DNA of 64,000 nt from an uncultured delta proteobacterium (GCA_963760795.1 CAVXEP010000004.1:1-64000), one strand, 5' to 3'; positions 3,268 through 56,141 are shown, counted from the first letter of the stretch. A program made the numbers and translations. The notes: generated from the letters alone by a model not told the origin.

Positions 3268-4251
3268 TCATCTAATGACTTTATCCGCCCGCACCAACAC
3301 ATTCGGCGGGATCGTCAGGCCGATTTGCTTCGCCGCTTTGAGATTGACGATGAACTCGAACTTAATCGGCTGCTCCACGGGGAGATCGGCGGGTTTGGCG
3401 CCTTTCAAAATCTTGTCCACAAACGTGGCGGCGCGTCGGGCCAAGTCGCTATGGTTCACGCCGTAGGTCATCAGCCCGCCGTCTTCGACATAATCGCGCC
3501 CGGGATAAATCGCCGGGAGGCGGTTCTTTACCGCGAGGTCTGTAATCTGTGTTCGCTGAGAAGGAGCGACGGGGTTGCCCAGCATGAGGACCGCGCCCGC
3601 CCGCCCCTTGCGTGCGGCTCGGAATGCGGTCTCAATATCCTTGCCATCGAGTATGTCTAGATATTGAAGTTGCACCTTGAATGCCGCAGCGGCGAGTTCC
3701 ACTTCTTTCAACGATTCTGCGTTGCCCGGTCGCGTCGAAGTCCCAAAGACCGCCACACGAGAGAGTTTAGGAAGGATCTCCTTCAGAATCTCCAGTCGTT
3801 TTCCGCTTATCTCCGGGCCAAGAGTGGACAATCCAGTAATGTTCCCGCCCGGTCGTGACAGACTGGCGACGAAGCCGTTGGCAACGGGATCGGTATCCTG
3901 CGCCATGACAATGGGAATTGTAGAAGTTGCTTCCTTGGCGGCGCGGGTTGCTGTCCCACCGCCCGTGACGATCACGTCTACCTTGAGACGCACTAGCTCG
4001 GCCGCGAGCGCGGGGAGGCGATCGAGTTTTCCCTCCGCAGATCGCAATTCAATAACAATGTTTTTCCCCTCCACATACCCAAGCTCGCGTAGACCCTGCC
4101 GGAATGCCTCGGTGCGGGCCAAGTCACCGGAAGGGGTGGAACCAATTAGGTTTGCTATCCGGGGAATTTTCGTTGGCTGCTGCGCCTCGGCTAAATAAAC
4201 GGTAGTCAGAAAGCCAAGCGCCAGAACAAAGCGACCGAGATATTTAATCAT
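3268..4251 (-). CDS. ABC_sub_bind (PF04392-like) substrate-binding protein
   Basis: GLRELGYVEGKN, TIPIVM..DPV..G.VASL.RPGGNITG, PADLPVEQP.KFEF.VNLK motifs. Confidence 0.9.
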   Translation of the reverse strand: MIKYLGRFVLALGFLTTVYLAEAQQPTKIPRIANLIGSTPSGDLARTEAFRQGLRELGYVEGKNIVIELRSAEGKLDRLPALAAELVRLKVDVIVTGGGTATRAAKEATSTIPIVMAQDTDPVANGFVASLSRPGGNITGLSTLGPEISGKRLEILKEILPKLSRVAVFGTSTRPGNAESLKEVELAAAAFKVQLQYLDILDGKDIETAFRAARKGRAGAVLMLGNPVAPSQRTQITDLAVKNRLPAIYPGRDYVEDGGLMTYGVNHSDLARRAATFVDKILKGAKPADLPVEQPIKFEFIVNLKAAKQIGLTIPPNVLVRADKVIR

Positions 4252-46820: not shown

Positions 46821-46836
46821 GAAATTGAGTGAAACC

Positions 46837-48280
46837 ATGAGCGAAGCTGTTTCAAACATCCGTCCTGAACCGGACAAGATATTAACTGACCTTGCCGATT
46901 ACGCGACGAGTTACGTCGCCACCAGCCGCGAAGCCATCGACACGGCGCGTTATGATTTAATCGATACCTTGGGCTGCGGCTTGCTGGCGCTGCGCTTTCC
47001 CGAATGCGCCAAGCATCTCGGTCCGGTGGTTCCCGGCGCGACGTTGACCAACGGCGCCCGGGTGCCGGGCACCGATTGGCAGTTGGATCCCGTGCACGCG
47101 GCGTTTAACATCGGCGCGATGATCCGCTGGCTCGACTACAACGATACCTGGCTCGCCGCCGAGTGGGGCCATCCGTCGGACAACTTGGGCGGCATCCTCG
47201 CCCTCGCCGACTACCTCACCCGCGCCAAGCAAAAATCTTTCACCGTCGCCGACGTCTTGCAGGCGATGATCAAGGCCCATGAAATTCAAGGCATCCTGGC
47301 GTTGGAGAATAGCTACAACCGCGTCGGTCTCGATCACGTCCTGCTGGTCCGCGTCGCCACCAGCGCCATCGCCACGGCGATGCTCGGCGGCACGCACGGG
47401 ACAAATCGTCAGCGCGCTATCCAACGCCTGGACCGACGGCGGCGCCCTGCGCGTCTACCGCCATGCGCCCAACACCGGGCCAAGAAAATCCTGGGCCGCC
47501 GGCGACGCCACCAGCCGCGGCGTGCGCTTGGCGCTGATGGCGCGGCAAGGCGAGATGGGCTATCCGTCGGTGCTCACGGCCAAGAGCTGGGGCTACTATG
47601 ATGTCCTATTCAAAGGCAAGCCGTTCACCATGGGCCGGCCGCTGGGCTCCTACGTGATGGAAAATGTTTTGTTCAAAATTTCTTTCCCCGCCGAGTTTCA
47701 CGCCCAGACCGCCGTCGAGTGCGCCGTGCAGCTGCATGAGCAAGTGAAGCAGCGCCTCGACCAGATCGACAAAGTCATCATCACCACCCAAGAGTCGGCG
47801 ATCCGTATCATCGACAAGTCCGGACCATTGCACAATCCCGCCGACCGCGATCATTGCATCCAATACATGACCGCCATCGGCTTGATCTTCGGTGCACTCA
47901 CCGCCGATCACTACGAAGACAAGATCGCCCGCGATCCGCGCATCGATTCGTTACGCGAAAAGATGACCTGCGTCGAAGATCCGCGCTATACGAAGGAATA
48001 TCTCGACGCCGACAAGCGCTCCATCGCCAACGCCGTGCAAGTTTTCTTCAAAGACGGCAGCAGCACCGACAAAGTCGCCGTCGAATACCCCATCGGCCAC
48101 CGCCGCCGCCGCGCCGAAGGCATGCCGCTGTTGGTGAAAAAGTTCGAGGCTAATCTCGGCTCACGTTTCGCGCCAGAGCAGTGCCAAGCGATTATGAAAT
48201 TGTGCAACGATCCGAAATCACTCGATGCCACACCGGTAGACAAATTCACAGATATGTTCGCGACCGGATCAGCGAAATAA
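46837..48280 (+). CDS. prpD: 2-methylcitrate dehydratase, one frameshift near 47400
   Basis: [20 protein letters not shown], then [17 protein letters not shown] and [14 protein letters not shown] in the shifted frame. Confidence 0.9.
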
Positions 48281-49290: not shown

Positions 49291-49580
49291 ACCCTCGGCT
49301 CGAAGCCGAGGGAGTTTGTTGCGTTGACTCGAAGTCGACTTTCGCTTTTTCGTCTTTCCGCGAAAGCATGTCCTGAGCGATGCCGAAGGGCGGGAATCCA
49401 GGTGACCGACCGCGTCCGTCATCCGTTGAAAAACGGTATCCAGATTCTCGGGATGGGGATGGACCCCGGTTTTCACCGGGTGACGATAGCGCCGGCATGA
49501 CGGAACTCCCGTCGCCTTAAGCACGTCCTGAGCTTAGCCTGTGCTGAGCTTAACCGAAGGATCGAAGCAGCGAGGGATTT
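49291..49580. repeat. Dense cluster of nested palindromic repeats
   Basis: ccctcggctcgaagccgaggg; gtctttccgcgaaagc[..cctgagcgatgccgaagg]gcgggaatccag; gtcatccgttgaaaaacggtatccag; ggaccccggttttcaccgggtgac; cctgagcttagcctgtgctgagcttaaccgaagg. Confidence 0.7.
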
Positions 49581-49659
49581 CAACCATCCCCGAGCGGGAG
49601 ATTAACAATCGTCACAGCCGAGCGACTTGCCGATACTCCCTCAAACTGTCGCCTGTTGC

Positions 49660-50623
49660 CTATTTGATTACTTTATCCGCCTTCATCAACGTCCACTGCG
49701 GAATCGTCAGGCCAATTTGCTTCGCGGTCTTGAGATTGATCACAAAGTCAAATTTCGTCGGTTGCTCGACCGGCAGGTCGGCGGGTTTGGTACCTTTGAG
49801 TATTTTATCGACGAATGTCGCGGCGCGGCGAAAAATCGCAAGGTCGTTGGCGGAGTAGGACATCAGTCCGCCATTCTCGACCCAGTGCTGCCTTCGAACA
49901 TCGACGGCAGGCGGTGCTTGATGGCAAGATCGGCGATCCGCTTGAGTTACGAAAGAGCGGACTGTTGGTAATCGTGATGACGGCGCGCGCGTTGCCTTTG
50001 CGCGCGGCTTGGAATGCCCCTTCCAGGTCCGGGTCGCCCGGCCTCGCGCACTAATCGAGATCGACCCATATTCTTGAAACCAGCCACCGACACCGCCTCT
50101 TCCGCGTCCGCAGGATGCCGACGCGCGCTAACCGCGGCACCACCTCGGCAAGCAACTCCAGACGCTTTCCACTCAGCTCTCGCTGAAGCGTAGTGAGCCC
50201 GGTAACATTTCCACCGGGGTGCGCCAAGCTGTCGACCAACCCGGTCGCAACTGGGTCCACTTGAGTCACCATGACAATCGGGATCGTTTTGGTCGCCTGC
50301 TTAGCGGCGCGGATCGCTGACGAAGTGGCAGGACCAGGACATCGACCTTGAGTTGGATGAGCTCGGCAACCAGGCTTGGCACCGGCTCCGCCTTTCCGGC
50401 AGCGCCACGAAATTCGATGGCAAAGTTTTTACCCTCGATGTATCCCAGATCGCGCAGCCCTTGGCGCAACGCCGCGACGTATGGCCCTTGATTCGAAGCA
50501 TCGCCGGTTCCTGACAAGTAGCCGATGCGTGGGATCTTTGCTCTGATGGCTGAGCCTGGGCAAAAGTAGATGGTTCCCAGAACGACAGTCGTCACGCAGC
50601 CACAAACCGATTCTTCCCTTCAA
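49660..50623 (-). pseudogene. ABC_sub_bind SBP, array B distal copy, multiple frameshifts and a stop
   Basis: Fragments KIPRIGYL..GLRDLGYIEGKN / DPVATGLVDSLAHPGGNVTG / PADLPVEQPTKF. Confidence 0.75.
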
Positions 50624-50669
50624 CCTTTGCCTCCGTTCATTTTGCCGTTTGCCCTTTTTACTTTTGCCT

Positions 50670-51734
50670 TTACCGAATTACCTTTTTCGCCCGCGCCAGC
50701 ACATTCGGTGGGATCGTCACGCCGAGCTGTTTGGCGGTGACGAGATTAAACGCCAGCTCAACGTCATCGACGGTGTCGATTCTCAGCTCGGCCGGCGGCG
50801 TGCCACTGAGCACGCGCTGGACGTACTTCGCCGAGCGCCGGCCGATCTCGAAATAGCTCTGGCCGTAGCTCGCCAGCGCACCGCGCGCCACCACCACCTG
50901 ATCGTGAAACATCGTCGGCAGTCGCTTCGCCCGCGCCACTTCGACGATGCGCGGCGCTTGGCTCACCACCATGGGATCGGGCATATACAAGTAGGCGTCG
51001 AACTCGCCGGCCTTGAGCGCGTCGAGGGCGCCGTTTATTTCGTCGATCGATTTCACCTGGCGTTCGGCCAGCTTGATGTTCATGCGTTGCGCTTCCGCGC
51101 GCCCCAACTTGAACCCTTCGACGGCGATCGTGTTGCTGGGATCGTAAAAGGCCACGACCTGGCGCAGCTTGGGCAGAAACTCTTTGAGAATCTCCAAACG
51201 TTTGCCGGTGAGATCGCGCGCCAAATACTGAATGCCGGTGAGCCGCCCCCCCGGTTGGCCAAAGGATTTGGCGAAACCACTGGCGACCGGATCGCTGCCC
51301 ACCGCAAAGACGATGGGAATATTCTTGGTCGCTTTGAACGCGTCACCGGTAATCGGTGTCGTGTTGGTAAATATCAGCTTGACCTTTTCGCGCTCCAAGG
51401 TCTCGGCGACGCCTTGCGCCGACTTCAAATCGCCCTTGAGATCATGGACATCGAGGATGAACTGTTTGCCATCTTGCAGGCCCAACTCTTTCAACCCAGC
51501 GCGCAGGCCATCCACCAGCGTCGCAAAGACTTCGCCCAAGTGGATGACCCCGATGCGCTCAGGCTTCGCCGGCTGAGCCTCGACCAACGCCCCACCGAAA
51601 GCTAATGTCAAAGCGAGAGTGACAATCCCCACCCATTTTGCTCCGCGGGGAAGCCTTTGGTCTGCGGGGCCGCTTTTAGATTTCCGATTAGCTGAGGAAT
51701 AAGTCAAAAAAGGATTCAGCGATATTTCGTACAT
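50670..51734 (-). CDS. ABC_sub_bind SBP, array B (divergent member)
   Basis: GLKELG, IPIVFAVGSDPV.SG, TIPPNVLARA.KVIR. Confidence 0.85.
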   Translation of the reverse strand: MYEISLNPFLTYSSANRKSKSGPADQRLPRGAKWVGIVTLALTLAFGGALVEAQPAKPERIGVIHLGEVFATLVDGLRAGLKELGLQDGKQFILDVHDLKGDLKSAQGVAETLEREKVKLIFTNTTPITGDAFKATKNIPIVFAVGSDPVASGFAKSFGQPGGRLTGIQYLARDLTGKRLEILKEFLPKLRQVVAFYDPSNTIAVEGFKLGRAEAQRMNIKLAERQVKSIDEINGALDALKAGEFDAYLYMPDPMVVSQAPRIVEVARAKRLPTMFHDQVVVARGALASYGQSYFEIGRRSAKYVQRVLSGTPPAELRIDTVDDVELAFNLVTAKQLGVTIPPNVLARAKKVIR

Positions 51735-51770
51735 GAGTTTTTCCTCAATCCCCAATCCAAAATCTAAAAT

Positions 51771-52754
51771 TTATCTGATGACCCGATCCGCCCGCACCAG
51801 CACATTGGGCGGGATCGTCAGGCCGATCTGCTTGGCGGCTTTCAGGTTGACGATGAACTCGAACTTGATCGGCTGTTCCACGGGGAGATCGGCGGGCTTT
51901 GTGCCTTTTAGAATCTTATCCACATAGGTGGCGGCACGGCGAAACAAATCGGGAGTGTTAGTGCCGTAGTATATGAGGCCGCCGGCTTCCATAAATTCCG
52001 ATTGTGGGTATATCGCCGGGAGCCGGCTCGTTACCGCGAAATCTACCAGCTGTTTTCGGTGCGAAGTGAGTACTGCGTTCTCCAGCACTAGGACAGCATC
52101 AGCGCGCTCCTTGTTTGCGGCGCGGTATGCAGTCTCGATATCCTTGACATCTCGTACGTCTGAGTATTGAAGCTGCACAGCCAGTGCCCCAGCGGCGAGT
52201 TGCATCTCTTTTAACGCTTGTGCGTTGCCCGGATGGGTCGAGTTGCCGAACACCGCCACACGCGCGAGTCTCGGAATGATCTCCTTCAGAAGCTCCAGTT
52301 GCTTGCCGCTTATCTCCGGGTAGAGGGTAGACAATCCAGTAATGTTGCTGCCAGGCCGCGCAAGGCTGGCGACGAACCCGTTGCCGACAGGATCGTTATC
52401 AAACGCCATGACGATGGGAATCGCAATAGTTGCTGCCTTGGCGGCACGGGTCGATTGCGGACCACCCGAGACGATGAGGTCTACCTTGAGGCGCACTAAT
52501 TCAGCCGCAAGCGCGGCGATGCGATCAAGTTTTCCCTCTGCCGAACGCCACTCGACAACAACGTTCTTCCCTTCCACGTACCCAAGTTCGCGCAGACCCT
52601 GCAAGAAGGCCTCGATGCGGGTCGCGTTAGCGGAAAGGGAGGGCGTAGTCAAGTATCCGATCCGAGGGATTTTCGTCGGCTGCTGCGCTTCGGCGGCAAA
52701 GCACGGAGCAAGGAGTAACGAGCATAGAGCAAGGCCAACAATTTTGTTAGTCAA
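51771..52754 (-). CDS. ABC_sub_bind SBP, array B
   Basis: Family motifs; mature domain close to 3268-4251. Confidence 0.9.
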   Translation of the reverse strand: MTNKIVGLALCSLLLAPCFAAEAQQPTKIPRIGYLTTPSLSANATRIEAFLQGLRELGYVEGKNVVVEWRSAEGKLDRIAALAAELVRLKVDLIVSGGPQSTRAAKAATIAIPIVMAFDNDPVGNGFVASLARPGSNITGLSTLYPEISGKQLELLKEIIPRLARVAVFGNSTHPGNAQALKEMQLAAGALAVQLQYSDVRDVKDIETAYRAANKERADAVLVLENAVLTSHRKQLVDFAVTSRLPAIYPQSEFMEAGGLIYYGTNTPDLFRRAATYVDKILKGTKPADLPVEQPIKFEFIVNLKAAKQIGLTIPPNVLVRADRVIR

Positions 52755-52803
52755 GGCGTATTCCCTTCTTCGCTGACATCCGCCTGCTGATCTCTGACTT
52801 CTG

Positions 52804-53778
52804 TCATCGGATCACCCGATCCGCCCGCACCAGCACGTTGGGCGGGACCGTCAGGCCGATTTGTTTCGCCGCGTTAAGATTGATGACCAGCTCGAACTTT
52901 GTCGGCCGTTCCACGGGAATGTCCATCGGTTTGGTGCCTTTGAGAATCTTGTCGACGTGCACCGCAGCGCGGTGTGCCATCTCGGCCATGTTTGGACCGT
53001 AGGACATTAAACCGCCATCGGGAGCCCAGGAGCCCCAGTCGCCGACCAGCGGTATGCGACTCTTTGCCGCGTAATCCAAAATGCGTTGTCGTTGGAAATT
53101 AATAAGTCTTGACGAGACGACAATGAGGGCCTGAGATTTCGCCTTCGTGGCGGCATCGAATTGGCCGTCGAAGTCCTCGCCTCGCCGGACTTGCAGCGAT
53201 TGCAACCGTACTTTCATTGCCTGAGCCGCGCTTTGAATTTCACGAAACTCGGGATCGGCGTGATCGGGATTCCACAGCACCGCCACTCGAGAAATTCTCG
53301 GCGCGATTTCTTTTAATAGCTCCAATCTTTTCCCCGCCAATTCGTCGAGAATAAGCGTGATGCCGGTAATGTTGCCGCCAGGATGGGCCAGGCTGGCGAC
53401 AATCCCCGATTGCACCGGATCGTTGCTCACCCACATGACGATCGGAATCGTCTTGGTTGCTTTCTGCGCTGCCGGCACGACATCGCCGCCGAGGGCAAGA
53501 ATTACATCGGGATTGAGCCGCGCCAGTTCGGCGGCAACTTCCGTAAGCCGATCGGGTTTGCCGCCAGCGAAACGGTATTCCACCGATAGATTTTTCCCCT
53601 CAGTGTAACCGAGGTCGCGCATGTTTTGGCGAAAAGCTGCAACGTTCGGGTCGTTTTCCGGCGTGCTATAAAGGAGCACGCCTACGCGTGGTATTTTTGC
53701 CGGCTGTTGCGCCTGGGCAAATGAAACAGTTGTTAGAAATAAACCCGCCAGTAGCCTGATCGCCATTTTGTAATTCAT
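52804..53778 (-). CDS. ABC_sub_bind SBP, array B
   Basis: Family motifs, signal peptide AQAQQ. Confidence 0.9.
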   Translation of the reverse strand: MNYKMAIRLLAGLFLTTVSFAQAQQPAKIPRVGVLLYSTPENDPNVAAFRQNMRDLGYTEGKNLSVEYRFAGGKPDRLTEVAAELARLNPDVILALGGDVVPAAQKATKTIPIVMWVSNDPVQSGIVASLAHPGGNITGITLILDELAGKRLELLKEIAPRISRVAVLWNPDHADPEFREIQSAAQAMKVRLQSLQVRRGEDFDGQFDAATKAKSQALIVVSSRLINFQRQRILDYAAKSRIPLVGDWGSWAPDGGLMSYGPNMAEMAHRAAVHVDKILKGTKPMDIPVERPTKFELVINLNAAKQIGLTVPPNVLVRADRVIR

Positions 53779-53822
53779 GTCATGTCTCCGTTCATTTTGC
53801 TTTTTTCATTTTTACTTTTACC

Positions 53823-53921
53823 TTATCGAATCACCCGATCCGCCCGCACCAGCACATTCGGCGGGATCGTCAGGCCGATCTGCTTGGCGGTTTTCAGATT
53901 AATTATGAACTCGAATTTCGT
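53823..53921 (-). pseudogene. Orphan 3'-terminal remnant of an ABC_sub_bind gene (32 codons plus stop)
   Basis: [32 protein letters not shown]; unrelated upstream sequence with an in-frame TAA at 53952-53954 and no ATG/GTG/TTG between. Confidence 0.85.
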
Positions 53922-54000
53922 CTGACGATTAAGCCGGCTCAGATCAACTCGTTATGCACTGAGGAGACTACACTTCCGCCGTCTCCTCGGCTGTTATAAC

Positions 54001-54015
54001 GCAGGAGCAATGCCA
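54001..54015 (-). promoter_or_regulatory. Putative sigma54 -24/-12 promoter pointing into array B
   Basis: TGGCATTGCTCCTGC, i.e. GG-N10-GC spacing. Confidence 0.55.
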
Positions 54016-54109
54016 CAAGCGACTCATCCATTAGTATTCCTAGTAAGCTGAATTCACAAAGAAATTCTTTCACGGGACGATAGCACCGGGCGAGCGGAAA
54101 AGAACGACG

Positions 54110-54148
54110 AGTAGTCGTTTTGCTACTCGGTGTAGCAAAAATGCGACA
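54110..54148. promoter_or_regulatory. Two tandem 18-bp palindromic sites, candidate enhancer-binding-protein UAS
   Basis: AGTAGTCGTTTTGCTACT and TGTAGCAAAAATGCGACA, 21 bp apart, ~95-135 bp upstream of the sigma54-like motif. Confidence 0.5.
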
Positions 54149-54181
54149 CCCAACTTGGTCGGGCTAAGAAGAAGTTACTCC

Positions 54182-54360
54182 CGCCAAGGCGCAAAGACGC
54201 TAAGTGACAGGCCAGAGGCCTGTCATCCCGAGCGAATGCGAGGGATCTAATGCAGGATTTCTCTCTCCGTTCGAAATGACAACATTCACCCTTTGCGCCT
54301 TGCGCCTTTGCGAGAGATATTCCGATTTATTTTTGTGGCCTTTGCGTTCTTTGCGGCCAA
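54182..54360. repeat. CGCAAAG/CTTTGCG element with a nested TGTCATCCCGAGC..GAAATGACA element
   Basis: cgccaaggcgcaaagacgctaag [tgtcatcccgagcgaatgcgagggatct..gatttctctctccgttcgaaatgaca] ctttgcgccttgcgcctttgcg. Confidence 0.75.
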
Positions 54361-54380
54361 ATCTCCGAGTCCGATTCTCT

Positions 54381-56141
54381 TCATTGATTACGCCGCAACT
54401 CTGCGGTCGCCGCGCTGTCGAGCTCGAACCGCCGTCCGTCTTGCCGGATCGCCACGCCATAGTCGCGCCGCGCCGCTTCGACGGAAACGTAACCCGAACG
54501 GACATCGACCAGCACTTTCTCCGCCGGGCGCTCGAACGCGCTCCAGAATCCGCCGCCACCACCGGTTTCGATCGTGAAGCTGTCGCCGTTGTCGATTTCG
54601 CTGGGCTTGATTTTGCCCGTCGGAAAGGTCTCCACCGCGCCGTTGTTATGGCTGACGAAGATTTGATTCGCCAGCGCGTCTTTGCCGCCGTGCAAGCCCC
54701 AGGGCGCGCAGATCGTCCGCTCGACATGAGCGTGGATGGTCGCCGGGCGGCGCATGCGCACTTCGTTTGACACTCCCAGGCCGCCGCGAAACTTGCCTGC
54801 GCCGCCGGAGTCTTGGCGCAGCTCGCGATGCTCGACGATGATGGGATTTTTCGCTTCGGTGGCTTCCACCGGCGCGTTATGGGTGTCGCCGTCGTTGAGA
54901 CACACCGTCGCGTTCATGCCGTCTTCATCGTGCTTGGCGCCCCAGCCGCCGCCGGGATGGCCGATGTGGGACCAGAAAAAACGCCCGGTCTCGGCATCGA
55001 AGCCATGGGGATTGACCGTGCATAGATCGGCGTAGTGGCCGGCGATGGTGCGCTCGGGACAGGCCGGCGCGAGGGCGCGAAAAAGCGTATCGCACACGGT
55101 CATCGGCACGGTCATCCAGACCCGCACCGGCGCCGGCTTGACGGCGCTGATGACCCGGCCAAGGGGCAGTATAATTTTTAACGGCCGAAACGAACCATCG
55201 TTGATCGGCAGCAACATGGGCGTGGTAATGCACTTGAAAACCACTTCGGCAGCGGAGCGGCCCGCCGTGATACCCGAATTATAGTATCCCGCCACCTGCG
55301 GGCTCACATTGCTCAAGTCGATGGTCATCTCATCGTCTTTGACCTCGACGCGCACGCGGATCGGGATATGTTTGCCGAGATTGACGCCGTCGTCGTCCAT
55401 GAACGACTCGGCCTCATAGACGCCGTCGGGGATCTGGCGCACAGCCGCGCGGGCGAGTTTCTCGCTTTGTTGGTAAATCGACTGAATGCTGTCTTTGAAA
55501 ACCTTATTGCCGTAGCGCCGTAAGATATTCAGGACACGCCGCTCGCCGGTGCGGATCGATGCGAGCTGGGCGCGCATATCGCCCATGGCGCTTGCGGGCA
55601 CGCGCACGTTGGCCTTGATAATTGCGGTGATCTCGGGATTTTCCACGCCCTGGCGAAAATGCTTCACGAAAGGCATCTGCAACCCTTCGGAGAAAATATC
55701 CCGGGTCACCCCGCCTAGCTGCCCGCCGATATCCTGCCAGTGCGCCATCGACGAGGAGTACGCCACCAATTCGCCGTCGTGAAAAATCGGCAGCGTGTAG
55801 ATCATGTGGTTGAGATGGCTGCCCATGATGTAGCTGTCGTTGGTGAGCAAGATATCTCCGGGATGAATATTGTCTTTGCCCCAGTGAGCGATCTTCGCCT
55901 TGATCGCATCCGACAACCCACGGACAAACATCGGCAAGCCAAGGCCGATGGAAATGGTATTGCCATCAGCATCGAACAGTCCGACGGTGAAATCCTCAGC
56001 TTCGTAGATGATCGTGTGATACGCCGTGCGCATCAGGTTGGTTTTCATCTCGCCGGTGATCGCGACCAGCGCGCTACGGATCACCTCGGTCGTAAAAGCA
56101 TCAACCTCGCTACGCGAGGTATTCAAAATTAAAGATTCCAT
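54381..56141 (-). CDS. Hydantoinase B/oxoprolinase family protein
   Basis: PGDILLTND.Y..G.HLN, AHWQDIGG, SEGLQ, DSGGAGKFRGGLG, TGGGGG. Confidence 0.9.
   Translation of the reverse strand: MESLILNTSRSEVDAFTTEVIRSALVAITGEMKTNLMRTAYHTIIYEAEDFTVGLFDADGNTISIGLGLPMFVRGLSDAIKAKIAHWGKDNIHPGDILLTNDSYIMGSHLNHMIYTLPIFHDGELVAYSSSMAHWQDIGGQLGGVTRDIFSEGLQMPFVKHFRQGVENPEITAIIKANVRVPASAMGDMRAQLASIRTGERRVLNILRRYGNKVFKDSIQSIYQQSEKLARAAVRQIPDGVYEAESFMDDDGVNLGKHIPIRVRVEVKDDEMTIDLSNVSPQVAGYYNSGITAGRSAAEVVFKCITTPMLLPINDGSFRPLKIILPLGRVISAVKPAPVRVWMTVPMTVCDTLFRALAPACPERTIAGHYADLCTVNPHGFDAETGRFFWSHIGHPGGGWGAKHDEDGMNATVCLNDGDTHNAPVEATEAKNPIIVEHRELRQDSGGAGKFRGGLGVSNEVRMRRPATIHAHVERTICAPWGLHGGKDALANQIFVSHNNGAVETFPTGKIKPSEIDNGDSFTIETGGGGGFWSAFERPAEKVLVDVRSGYVSVEAARRDYGVAIRQDGRRFELDSAATAELRRNQ

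What the first reader, a model, noticed from the sequence alone, without database searches (positions are those of the whole stretch)
49660..54148. Cassette-like ABC_sub_bind array: promoter, orphan 3'-end copy, then four genes ending in the same sequence
Seen, reading the minus strand: two palindromic sites (54110-54148), a sigma54-like motif (54001-54015), a hairpin (53951-54001), a 99-nt gene-less copy of the family 3' end (53823-53921), then four leader-plus-SBP units. The 23-mer ACCCGATCCGCCCGCACCAGCAC is identical at 51781, 52814 and 53833, including synonymous positions, and a close variant occurs at ~3283, although the gene bodies differ strongly. The two distal genes carry more diverged ends, and the most distal gene is the most decayed. 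Inference: n genes with n+1 end motifs behind one promoter is what integration of gene circles at a conserved site would give, as in integrons. The 3' end may therefore act as a recombination or conversion site for a binding-protein repertoire. No recombinase is encoded in the window.
Basis: partly seen in the sequence, partly recalled or inferred. Interest (0 to 1): 0.78.

Follow-up and report, generated by a model that had tools for sequence, protein, structure and literature searches.

The report
Binding-protein gene array with leftover gene end
This is an ordinary though fast-changing row of duplicated nutrient-binding-protein genes behind one regulated promoter in an uncultured soil bacterium, and the gene-less "extra end" at its head is most likely the leftover of a lost gene, not the docking site of an integron-like cassette system.

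Summary
The sequence features are real. The 23-mer is exact at 51781, 52814 and 53833. A 32-36-codon gene-less PF04392 3' end lies at 53823-53933. A palindrome pair and a sigma-54-type motif lie upstream.

The integron reading is not supported.
- The same orphan, with the same left edge, sits at the head of the syntenic array in congener G003. In congeners G013 and G017 the same promoter runs directly into a full-length gene.
- Other orphans in the genome start at different codons.
- Rearrangement junctions between the G000 and G003 arrays lie at the genes' 5' ends.
- No tyrosine recombinase lies on this contig or next to any array examined.
- The 3' block does not fold better than shuffles as single-stranded DNA.

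Silent-site identity in the 3' block is raised among paralogs (0.636 against 0.297 expected). It is not raised between orthologs (41/157 against 399/1843 silent differences). This fits old gene conversion or recombination among some 50-100 paralogs, not a selected DNA site.

The array has 4 units here, 9 in G003 and about 24 in G013. It shares its upstream site and promoter with a locus on contig C25. That locus carries an NtrC-type regulator and a dCache sensor kinase.

Earlier notes of this scan describe similar arrays in other genomes.

The parts
54109..54140 (-). Two overlapping palindromes, TTTTGCTAC-N5-GTAGCAAAA and GAGTAG-N8-CTACTC. Probable binding site (UAS) for a sigma-54 activator.
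   Evidence: TGCTAC-N5-GTAGCA occurs exactly only twice in 6.58 Mb: here and at C25:166998, upstream of another PF04392 array. A 55-nt block is nearly identical between the two loci. The site is conserved in G003 and G013, and a variant is present in G017. Binding itself is inferred.
54048..54070 (-). Conserved A/T-rich box between the UAS and the promoter (AAAGAATTTCTTTGTGAATTCAG).
   Evidence: It is conserved in the window, G003 and G013. A role as a DNA-bending (IHF-type) site is inference only.
54001..54015 (-). Sigma-54-type -24/-12 motif TGGCATTGCTCCTGC.
   Evidence: The pattern TGG[CT]A[CT]-N5-[CT]TGC has 156 hits in the genome. Only 2 lie within 450 nt upstream of a PF04392 unit: this one and C25:167122. 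It is conserved in G003 and G013 and G017. No sigma-70-like site was found in 49300-54500 (0 found; shuffles gave 2.2 +/- 1.5). The TSS has not been mapped.
53950..54001 (-). Hairpin at the predicted 5' end of the transcript (core stem 53962-53988).
   Evidence: MFE -23.1 kcal/mol, z -1.99, with 11 of 200 shuffles folding as well. In G003 the stem is kept in 7 of 8 pairs, with changes on both sides at 3 pairs (read from the alignment). It is absent in G013.
53823..53933 (-). Orphan PF04392 3' end: the last ~32-36 codons plus the stop codon, with no start codon and no gene body.
   Evidence: It is present with the same left edge in G003 (L011:4568-4672). It is 83-87% identical to the G003 orphan and 90-92% identical to the 3' end of G003 gene A.
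53779..53822 (-). Spacer/leader of 'GCAAAAG' heptamer type before g1.
   Evidence: The same spacer type follows g3, the G003 orphan and G003 gene A. TRF finds a period 14 (two heptamers) at 53791-53819.
52804..53778 (-). g1, an intact PF04392 solute-binding protein of 324 aa with a signal peptide.
   Evidence: Pfam E 5.6e-49. The body is orthologous to G003 gene F (88-98% per 90-nt window). The leader is like that of G003 gene A.
51771..52754 (-). g2, an intact PF04392 protein of 327 aa.
   Evidence: Pfam E 3.2e-55. Its closest relative in the G003 array is the frame-broken unit E* (80-93%). Closest solved structures: 3lkv, 3lft and 6hni.
50670..51755 (-). g3, an intact PF04392 protein. The ORF is 361 aa from TTG 51755; an ATG lies at 51734.
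   Evidence: Pfam E 4e-55. The body is orthologous to G003 gene H (84-98%). The 5' leader is like that of G003 gene F.
49660..50623 (-). g4*, a frame-broken PF04392 unit in three frames with an internal gap.
   Evidence: HMM pieces cover positions 37-124, 126-202 and 229-355. Its ortholog I* in G003 is also in pieces. Applying the 7 single-base differences seen in public contigs merges positions 19-202 but leaves two breaks.

Best explanation
The region is a sigma-54-dependent operon of tandemly duplicated, exported PF04392 (TrpX-like) solute-binding-protein genes in an uncultured soil bacterium. Records of its close relatives are labelled Binatia or 'delta proteobacterium'.

The family has roughly 50-100 copies per genome but at most five matching permease pairs. 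It is a birth-and-death family of 'orphan' binding proteins.

The array is transcribed from a -24/-12 promoter. That promoter is probably activated from the upstream palindrome by the NtrC-type response regulator encoded at C25, which heads a sister array ending in a dCache sensor kinase.

The gene-less 3' end is the remnant of a former head gene, or of the 3' part of a neighbour carried along in a segmental duplication. It arose once, before the split from congener G003, and is now part of a ~210-nt 5' leader.

The array changes by RecA-type unequal recombination and gene conversion between paralogs. These events are anchored in the most conserved stretches: the signal-peptidase-site region at the 5' end and the last ~22 codons at the 3' end. 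That history, together with very strong protein conservation, explains the shared 23-mer.

Shown: anatomy, conservation, orphan inheritance, array turnover and the silent-site pattern.
Inferred: promoter activity, regulator identity, and the deletion and conversion events.
For: Family and copy number:
- PF04392 matches for g1-g3.
- 98 PF04392 matches in G000 and 70 in G003.
- Only 10 BPD_transp_2 matches in G000.

Promoter and regulator:
- The exact UAS palindrome occurs only at C4 and C25.
- Only 2 of 156 sigma-54-type motifs lie upstream of PF04392 units, and they are these two.
- The C25 site is flanked by a REC-Sigma54_activat-HTH_8 gene and followed by four units and a dCache_1-HAMP-GAF-HisKA-HATPase_c kinase.
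- UAS and promoter are conserved in G003, G013 and G017.
- No sigma-70-like site was found in 5.2 kb.

Orphan history:
- G003 has the orphan at the same edge.
- G013 and G017 have a gene directly after the promoter.
- A paralogous G003:C8 locus is 88.5% identical over 1103 nt to orphan+spacer+g1. There the '3' end' belongs to a whole, though frame-broken, gene.

Array turnover:
- 4, 9 and about 24 units in G000, G003 and G013.
- g1 pairs with F, g2 with E*, g3 with H and g4* with I*. The order of F and E is swapped and the leaders come from other units.

Silent sites:
- Paralog codon identity in the block is 0.636 against 0.297 expected. It is 0.38-0.40 in other highly conserved blocks.
- Across 8 reciprocal-best ortholog pairs, silent differences are 399/1843 (0.216) in the body and 41/157 (0.261) in the last 22 codons.
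Against: - No transcript data exist. The TSS, sigma-54 dependence and regulator binding are untested.
- Neither G013's nor G017's head gene can be shown to be the ortholog of the lost gene. The spacer after G013's head gene is unrelated to the spacer after the orphan. Deletion in place and duplication-plus-insertion of a '3' end + spacer + gene' segment therefore cannot be told apart.
- Silent identity among non-orthologous pairs is the same within and between G000 and G003 (0.526 vs 0.529; 0.576 vs 0.571). There is thus no sign of conversion since that split, and conversion is inferred only for older times.
- In 149 genes from 42 genome labels the block's excess codon identity (0.23) is the highest but is matched by one other 10-column block. 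The effect is modest, and kin are not independent.
- The window's orphan still encodes a perfect family consensus and is closer to a functional 3' end than to its positional ortholog. A neutral relic need not show that.
Confidence: 0.75

Rival explanations
1. Integron-like cassette system. The 3' block is a site-specific recombination site, and circular 'spacer + gene + block' units integrate at a gene-less block behind the promoter, giving n genes and n+1 blocks.
For: There is one promoter followed by a gene-less block. In total, 16 short orphan 3' ends were found with no family unit within 300 nt upstream: 5 in G000 and 11 in 77 loci of other genomes. Eleven of the 16 are followed within 200 nt by a full gene. 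Array content and order differ between congeners. Paralogs show raised silent identity in the block.
Against: - The orphan is inherited (same edge in G003), and two congeners have a whole gene in its place.
- Orphan edges differ between loci.
- The bodies of g1 and g3 moved without either flanking spacer. Their junctions lie at the 5' end.
- The block lies inside the reading frame and encodes the family's most conserved motif.
- The ssDNA folds of three blocks on both strands are not better than shuffles (z -0.18 to -1.58).
- None of 14 tyrosine-recombinase matches is on C4 or within about 10 kb of the arrays I examined.
- Orthologous blocks carry no extra silent constraint.
Confidence: 0.04
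2. The block plus spacer is a functional leader element, for example for mRNA stability, processing or translation of the next gene. An orphan copy is therefore kept by selection in front of a head gene.
For: Eleven of 16 short orphans sit directly upstream of a full gene. The window's orphan keeps the family consensus, and the orphan and spacer are 83-87% conserved with G003. Two 'GCAAAAG' leaders can pair with the signal-peptide coding region around the start codon.
Against: - G013 and G017 express their head gene without any orphan.
- The G003 orphan carries changes at conserved codons (P to L, VI to ET).
- The leader folds are not better than shuffles (z -0.89, +0.72, -1.40, -0.60).
- No Rfam family matches in 49300-54500 at E up to 1.
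- In tandem arrays any 5'-truncated relic keeps its downstream neighbour, so the layout needs no selection.
Confidence: 0.1
3. Assembly artefact: the orphan or the repeated 23-mer comes from mis-joined or collapsed paralog reads in a long-read metagenome assembly.
For: The assembly has consensus frame breaks. prpD in the window is split over two ORFs. Public contigs differ from the window by 7 listed single-base indels in g4*.
Against: An independently assembled congener (G003) has the same promoter-orphan-spacer-gene layout. The orphan's edges are not at a contig end. Short public contigs cover 53258-53788 and 53508-53813, up to the spacer (table 8).
Confidence: 0.02

Closest known systems
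Expanded 'orphan' periplasmic binding-protein families, such as the Bug/TctC family of Bordetella and Cupriavidus (recalled, not searched), and multi-SBP systems such as DppA1-5 of Pseudomonas aeruginosa (PMC4206461, search listing only)
   Same: There are many paralogous binding-protein genes per genome, far more than matching permeases: 98 PF04392 matches against 10 BPD_transp_2 matches. Many stand in tandem.
   Different: The Pfam family differs (PF04392, TrpX-like). Arrays reach about 24 units. This array is under sigma-54/NtrC-type control. It includes a gene-less 3' relic.
TrpX-type aromatic amino-acid binding proteins (NCBIfam NF041285; PDB 3lft, 3lkv, 6hni)
   Same: Same Pfam family and fold class. 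These are the best sequence matches among solved structures. PF04392 structures bind L-Trp, L-Tyr and L-Phe (PMC10443332, Table 1 passage read).
   Different: Scores of 126-142 bits lie far below the equivalog cut-off of 390. The ligands of g1-g3 are unknown, and no trpYZ-like permease is adjacent.
Integrons (IntI, attI, attC, Pc)
   Same: One promoter lies at the head, and same-strand units each end in a similar sequence.
   Different: There is no integrase. The repeated sequence is coding, not a folded attC. There is no fixed crossover point. The units are paralogs of one family rather than unrelated cassettes.
Binding-protein arrays beside sensor kinases, noted earlier by this scan in other genomes (e1-3096118, e1-757349, e1-753506), and SBP-dependent kinases such as LuxP-LuxQ named there
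   Same: The sister locus on C25 has the layout regulator - sigma-54 promoter - PF04392 units - dCache kinase. The window's array carries the same UAS and promoter.
   Different: The window's own array has no kinase or regulator gene beside it. It lies between hydantoinase A/B genes and methylcitrate-cycle genes. Signalling through the binding proteins is untested.
Silent-cassette gene-conversion systems (Neisseria pilE/pilS, Borrelia vls; recalled)
   Same: Promoterless partial copies sit next to expressed paralogs, and conserved flanking stretches can anchor conversion.
   Different: The orphans here hold only the conserved end, not variable sequence, so they cannot donate diversity. No sign of programmed conversion was found.

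Membership tests
Integron / attC cassette array | An integron-type tyrosine recombinase (IntI) beside the array | tested here: not met
   PF00589 search of the genome gave 14 matches. None is on contig C4 and none is next to the arrays on C4, C7, C13, C19 or C25. The genome is 89% complete, so absence is not proven.
Integron / attC cassette array | Each cassette ends in a non-coding imperfect inverted repeat (attC) that folds as single-stranded DNA | tested here: not met
   The repeated block is the last ~22 codons of the ORF. DNA folds of three blocks on both strands gave z -0.18 to -1.58, with 16-82 of 200 shuffles folding as well.
Integron / attC cassette array | Recombination at one fixed point, so cassette boundaries coincide | tested here: not met
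   Orphan left edges differ between loci. The junctions of g1 and g3 against G003 lie in the first ~100 nt of the genes.
Integron / attC cassette array | Circular cassette intermediates | tested here: inconclusive
   Only assembled contigs of four public runs could be laid. The joints have sides under 30 nt and come from paralogs or other organisms. No raw reads of this organism were on hand.
PF04392 ABC_sub_bind solute-binding proteins | Match to the Pfam model above its gathering score | tested here: met
   g1 scores 167 bits, g2 188 and g3 188, against a cut-off of 25.9.
TrpX equivalog (NF041285) | Score above the curated cut-off of 390 bits | tested here: not met
   Scores are 126-142 bits. 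These are family relatives, not equivalogs.
Sigma-54-dependent promoter with bEBP upstream site | GG-N10-GC (-24/-12) motif with an activator-type palindrome ~100 nt upstream | tested here: met
   TGGCATTGCTCCTGC lies at 54015-54001, with the palindrome 105-140 nt upstream. The same pair lies at C25 beside a Sigma54_activat gene. It is conserved in three congeners.
Sigma-54-dependent promoter with bEBP upstream site | Transcription start ~12 nt downstream of the motif, dependent on RpoN and the activator | not testable with these tools
   No RNA reads of this organism were available (no run holds half of the words, and all are kept as contigs).
Tandem paralog array evolving by unequal recombination and gene conversion | Copy number and order differ between close relatives, with mosaic units | tested here: met
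   There are 4, 9 and about 24 units. Painting shows body and leader of g1 and g3 derived from different G003 units, and a swapped F/E order.
Tandem paralog array evolving by unequal recombination and gene conversion | Paralogs more alike at silent sites than orthologous divergence predicts, locally | tested here: met
   Paralog identity in the block is 0.636 against 0.297 expected. Ortholog silent differences are 0.261 in the block against 0.216 in the body. No within-genome excess appears since the G000/G003 split, so the events are old.

The most novel reading that the evidence does not exclude
The two nucleotide-conserved anchors of the family are the AQQP..KIPRIG region at the 5' end and the last ~22 codons at the 3' end. 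Together with the heptamer-repeat spacers, they could be the working parts of a repertoire-shuffling system. In that system whole ligand-binding bodies would be swapped by homologous recombination between some 50-100 loci, and perhaps between soil species. Leaders, promoters and orphan ends would stay in place as landing pads. This would be a nutrient-sensing counterpart of pilE/pilS-type cassette conversion.

The evidence does not exclude it:
- Bodies have moved without their spacers.
- Orphan ends recur in front of full genes.
- The block is present at depth sums of 300-2300 in contigs of four soil metagenome runs, against 5-60 for the gene bodies.
- Period-7 repeats are about 8-fold enriched next to family units.
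Probability: 0.07. Interest if true: 0.75.

Novelty: new member of a known kind. Interest (0 to 1): 0.3.

Why it matters
As found, it matters modestly. It documents a very large and fast-turning family of orphan PF04392 binding proteins in uncultured Binatia-like soil bacteria. The same promoter heads arrays of 4 to about 24 units in congeners. It links one array to a two-component, sigma-54 system encoded elsewhere in the genome. That adds a regulon view to the scan's earlier notes that such arrays sit beside sensor kinases.

It also gives a worked example of how to tell a selected DNA site from shared ancestry or conversion: paralog silent identity is raised, ortholog silent divergence is not reduced.

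If the bolder reading were true, body swapping at fixed homology anchors would be a new way for bacteria to diversify what they sense or take up.

Tried and rejected
1. Public reads for circle or excision junctions. The look-up of sequencing runs found no run holding half of the words. The best share was 0.24, and all runs are kept as contigs. Read laying on X1, X4, X7 and X8 gave only short contigs of relatives and paralogs. The joints had sides under 30 nt and are uninformative. The lack of cover on 53928-54091 is no finding.

2. RNA families. No Rfam match in 49300-54500 at E up to 1.

3. Leader hairpins. Folds of the four spacer-plus-start regions were not better than shuffles.

4. attC-like ssDNA folds. 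Not better than shuffles.

5. Adjacency test for 3' identity among intact genes. Only 8 adjacent pairs were available, and missing blocks made the regression fail. I dropped it.

6. Homology of G013's head-gene spacer to the orphan's spacer. None found, so orthology of the lost gene could not be shown.

7. Hydantoinase-B loci of seven further congeners (L003, L005-L010). None had a PF04392 unit or promoter match within the 1.5-kb flanks. Longer stretches of G014 and G007 also had none. These are other hydantoinase loci.

8. Literature. Searches for 'PF04392'/'ABC_sub_bind' (6 papers), for Binatota/Binatia with binding-protein terms and for 'solute-binding protein' + 'gene conversion' + 'paralogs' + 'tandem' (1 unrelated paper) found nothing on such arrays or on a conserved 3' block. 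Supplements were not seen.

9. The scan's index by sequence found no look-alike window.

10. A reading of palindrome 2 as an intrinsic terminator of the hydantoinase genes. The scan found 9 terminator-like sites against 6.2 +/- 2.5 in shuffles, and the C25 copy has no T-run. I did not adopt it.


Full report
WHAT IS THERE

On the minus strand of window 49660-54148 lie three intact PF04392 (ABC_sub_bind) genes and one frame-broken unit.
- g1 52804-53778, g2 51771-52754 and g3 50670-51755 score E 1e-49 to 1e-55.
- g4* 49660-50623 is split into HMM pieces 37-124, 126-202 and 229-355.

Upstream of g1 lies a gene-less copy of the family's last 32-36 codons plus stop, at 53823-53933. Read, it has no in-frame ATG, GTG or TTG before its last ten codons.

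The 23-mer is exact at 51781, 52814 and 53833, and none of 100 shuffles gave any match. The copy claimed near 3283 is not within 3 mismatches. Read it has 4. In the whole genome the exact 23-mer occurs four times, three of them here.

Upstream again lie:
- two overlapping palindromes at 54109-54140;
- a -24/-12-type motif TGGCATTGCTCCTGC at 54015-54001;
- a hairpin with core stem 53962-53988, z -1.99, with 11 of 200 shuffles folding as well.

Upstream neighbours on the same strand are hydantoinase B and A. Downstream, and convergent, are methylcitrate-cycle genes.

THE FAMILY AND THE GENOME

The window is contig C4:1-64000 of a 6.58-Mb, 35-contig genome, 89% complete and 6% contaminated. Records that encode the closest relatives of g2 are soil metagenome bins labelled Binatia, 'delta proteobacterium', Syntrophobacteraceae and others.

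The genome has 98 PF04392 matches. With my own HMM, chaining pieces gave the following counts:
- 27 single-frame full units;
- 25 full units split over frames;
- 16 3'-only pieces;
- 8 5'-only pieces;
- 2 internal pieces.
Some rows in that list overlap one another.

These 'broken' counts must be read with care, because the assembly has consensus indel errors.
- prpD in this window is split over two ORFs.
- Public contigs differ from the window by seven listed single-base indels, all in g4*. Applying them merges HMM 19-202 but leaves two breaks.

Only 10 BPD_transp_2 permease matches exist in the genome. These are therefore 'orphan' binding proteins. g1-g3 are distant TrpX relatives, scoring 126-142 bits against a cut-off of 390. 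The nearest solved structures are 3lkv, 3lft and 6hni. Known PF04392 ligands are aromatic amino acids (PMC10443332, Table 1 passage).

THE PROMOTER IS REAL AND SHARED

The exact palindrome TGCTAC-N5-GTAGCA occurs only twice in the genome: here and at C25:166998. A 55-nt block around it is nearly identical at the two loci.

Of 156 genomic matches to TGG[CT]A[CT]-N5-[CT]TGC, only two lie within 450 nt upstream of a PF04392 unit. Both sit about 100-120 nt downstream of these palindromes.

At C25 the layout is as follows:
- a REC-Sigma54_activat-HTH_8 response-regulator gene immediately before the site;
- four PF04392 units after it;
- then an 803-aa dCache_1-HAMP-GAF-HisKA-HATPase_c kinase.

The palindrome, an A/T-rich box and the motif are conserved in congeners G003 and G013. 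G017 has a variant palindrome with TGGCACTGTTCCTGC. No sigma-70-like site was found in 49300-54500.

I infer that the window's array is a second operon under the C25 two-component system. This has not been shown. Earlier notes of this scan describe similar arrays beside sensor kinases in other genomes (e1-3096118, e1-757349, e1-753506). I checked only that such a kinase exists at C25.

THE ORPHAN IS AN INHERITED RELIC

Congener G003 is syntenic. It has hydantoinase B, the same UAS and promoter, and an orphan with the same left edge (L011:4568-4672). Nine units follow: A B C D E* F G H I*. The G003 orphan is in frame but has changes at conserved codons.

In G013 and G017 the same promoter runs directly into a full-length unit with no orphan. 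G013's array has about 24 units over 28 kb.

I could not prove that the head gene of G013 is the ortholog of the lost gene. Its downstream spacer is unrelated to the orphan's spacer.

A paralogous locus in G003 (C8) is 88.5% identical over 1103 nt to orphan+spacer+g1. There the '3' end' belongs to a whole, though frame-broken, gene. The orphan could therefore have arisen in either of two ways:
- deletion of a head gene's body in place;
- a segmental duplication that began inside a neighbour's 3' end.

Other orphans exist. Sixteen short 3'-only pieces have no family unit within 300 nt upstream: 5 in G000 and 11 in the 77 external loci. Eleven of the 16 are followed within 200 nt by a full gene. 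Their left edges differ: KFEF here, INLK at C19:329450, NTAKQ at C20:147300 and KPADLP at C31.

Short 5'-only relics are fewer. However, the 5' end is poorly conserved and short pieces of it are hard to detect, so I give the asymmetry little weight.

HOW THE ARRAY CHANGES

I painted the window against G003's array in 90-nt windows. The results were:
- g1 body matches F (88-98%);
- g2 matches E* (80-93%);
- g3 body matches H (84-98%);
- g4* matches I* (77-100%).

Three points stand out.
- F and E are in swapped order, and A-D and G are absent from the window.
- g1 carries the spacer and leader that precede A in G003.
- g3 carries the spacer and leader that precede F.

Two junctions therefore lie within the first ~100 nt of genes. 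The spacer between g1 and g2 has no counterpart in G003's array.

Spacers fall into a few recurring heptamer-repeat classes that do not travel with gene bodies. This is the pattern expected from homologous unequal recombination or long conversion tracts between paralogs. It is not the pattern of site-specific insertion at the 3' end.

THE SILENT-SITE QUESTION

In a codon alignment of 36 G000 genes, I measured codon identity at columns where both genes have the same amino acid.
- In most 12-column blocks it is 0.38-0.54.
- In the block [13 protein letters not shown] it is 0.636, against 0.297 expected from family codon usage.
- Other blocks with equal or higher amino-acid identity show 0.38-0.40.

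In 149 genes from 42 genome labels the excess holds within genomes (0.585-0.69) and between genomes (0.455-0.65), against 0.36-0.43 in the bodies of divergent pairs. Codon entropy is reduced by 0.61 bits in the block against 0.32 in other conserved columns (Mann-Whitney p 0.004; kin are not independent).

The whole gene also shows site-specific codons. By a second measure the block (0.23) is the highest but is equalled by one other 10-column block.

The ortholog comparison bears most directly on this question. In 8 reciprocal-best G000-G003 pairs of at least 80% identity (10 pairs were found; 2 below 80% were dropped), silent-codon differences are:
- 399/1843 = 0.216 in the body;
- 20/100 in the 14 codons before the block;
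- 41/157 = 0.261 in the last 22 codons.

Silent sites of the block are therefore not under extra constraint in a given copy. The raised paralog identity means instead that 3' ends share more recent ancestry than bodies. That points to conversion or recombination.

Non-orthologous pairs are equally alike within and between G000 and G003 (0.526 vs 0.529 and 0.576 vs 0.571). No homogenisation is visible since that split.

AGAINST AN INTEGRON-LIKE SYSTEM

- None of 14 tyrosine-recombinase matches is on C4 or beside the arrays I examined.
- The block is coding.
- Its ssDNA folds are not better than shuffles.
- Orphan edges vary between loci.
- The junctions I could map lie at 5' ends.

Public runs gave only contigs, and their joints are uninformative. 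What they do show is that the 3' blocks match very many contigs of soil metagenomes. Summed depth is 300-2300 in four of the five 3'-block bins (119 in the fifth, in run X1), against 5-60 in most body bins. This is in line with a huge family that shares the stretch.

VERDICT

The cassette/integron interpretation is not supported. The weaker idea that the 3' end is a preferred place of homologous exchange is compatible with the data.

The locus is a new member of a known kind: a tandem paralog array with a pseudogene relic, under sigma-54/two-component control. The scan has noted similar arrays before on other DNA.

Noticed in passing
G000:C25:165551-175200 (loci L012, L126): The sister locus has this layout: NtrC-type response regulator, the same palindrome and sigma-54-type motif, four PF04392 units (some frame-broken), then an 803-aa dCache_1-HAMP-GAF-HisKA-HATPase_c sensor kinase. 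A DASS-type symporter gene precedes the regulator.
   Followed up: partly
window 53779-53822, 52755-52803, 51756-51770 plus 51641-51755, 50624-50669; genome-wide: Spacers between units are built of degenerate heptamer repeats (GCAAAAG, ATTTTGG and CAGAAGT types). TRF finds 416 period-7 micro-arrays in the genome. Of these, 47 lie within 200 nt of a PF04392 unit, a zone covering 1.45% of the genome. The commonest unit is AAAATCC. Their role is unknown.
   Followed up: partly
window 54180-54380: The stretch between the hydantoinase B stop and the palindromes consists of dispersed repeats. They have well over 100 partial copies across the genome and high depth in soil-metagenome contigs. They look REP- or MITE-like and were not classified.
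   Followed up: no
window 46825-48280: prpD (2-methylcitrate dehydratase) is split over two overlapping ORFs. The Pfam N-terminal domain is matched only from position 168 in the second ORF.
   Followed up: no
G013:C3:805000-837000 (L013, L014): A single tandem array of about 24 PF04392 units spans 28 kb. It is bracketed by two hydantoinase-B paralogs (832651-834801 and 806173-807942). It holds an internal short 3'-only piece at L014:4785-4895.
   Followed up: partly
window 51630-51773 (minus strand) and G000:C19:329300-329450: Heptamer repeats in the spacer have inverted copies just inside the next gene, where they encode the Lys-rich part of the signal peptide (…NRKSKS…, …NPKSKIQK…). A long stem could therefore enclose the ribosome-binding site and start codon. 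The fold is not better than shuffles (z -1.40).
   Followed up: partly
G000: C13:250850, C14:6960, C19:126727, C25:182267, C7:134222: Several other PF04392 arrays or genes have a histidine-kinase gene within about 2-11 kb. This agrees with the scan's earlier notes that such arrays accompany sensor kinases.
   Followed up: no
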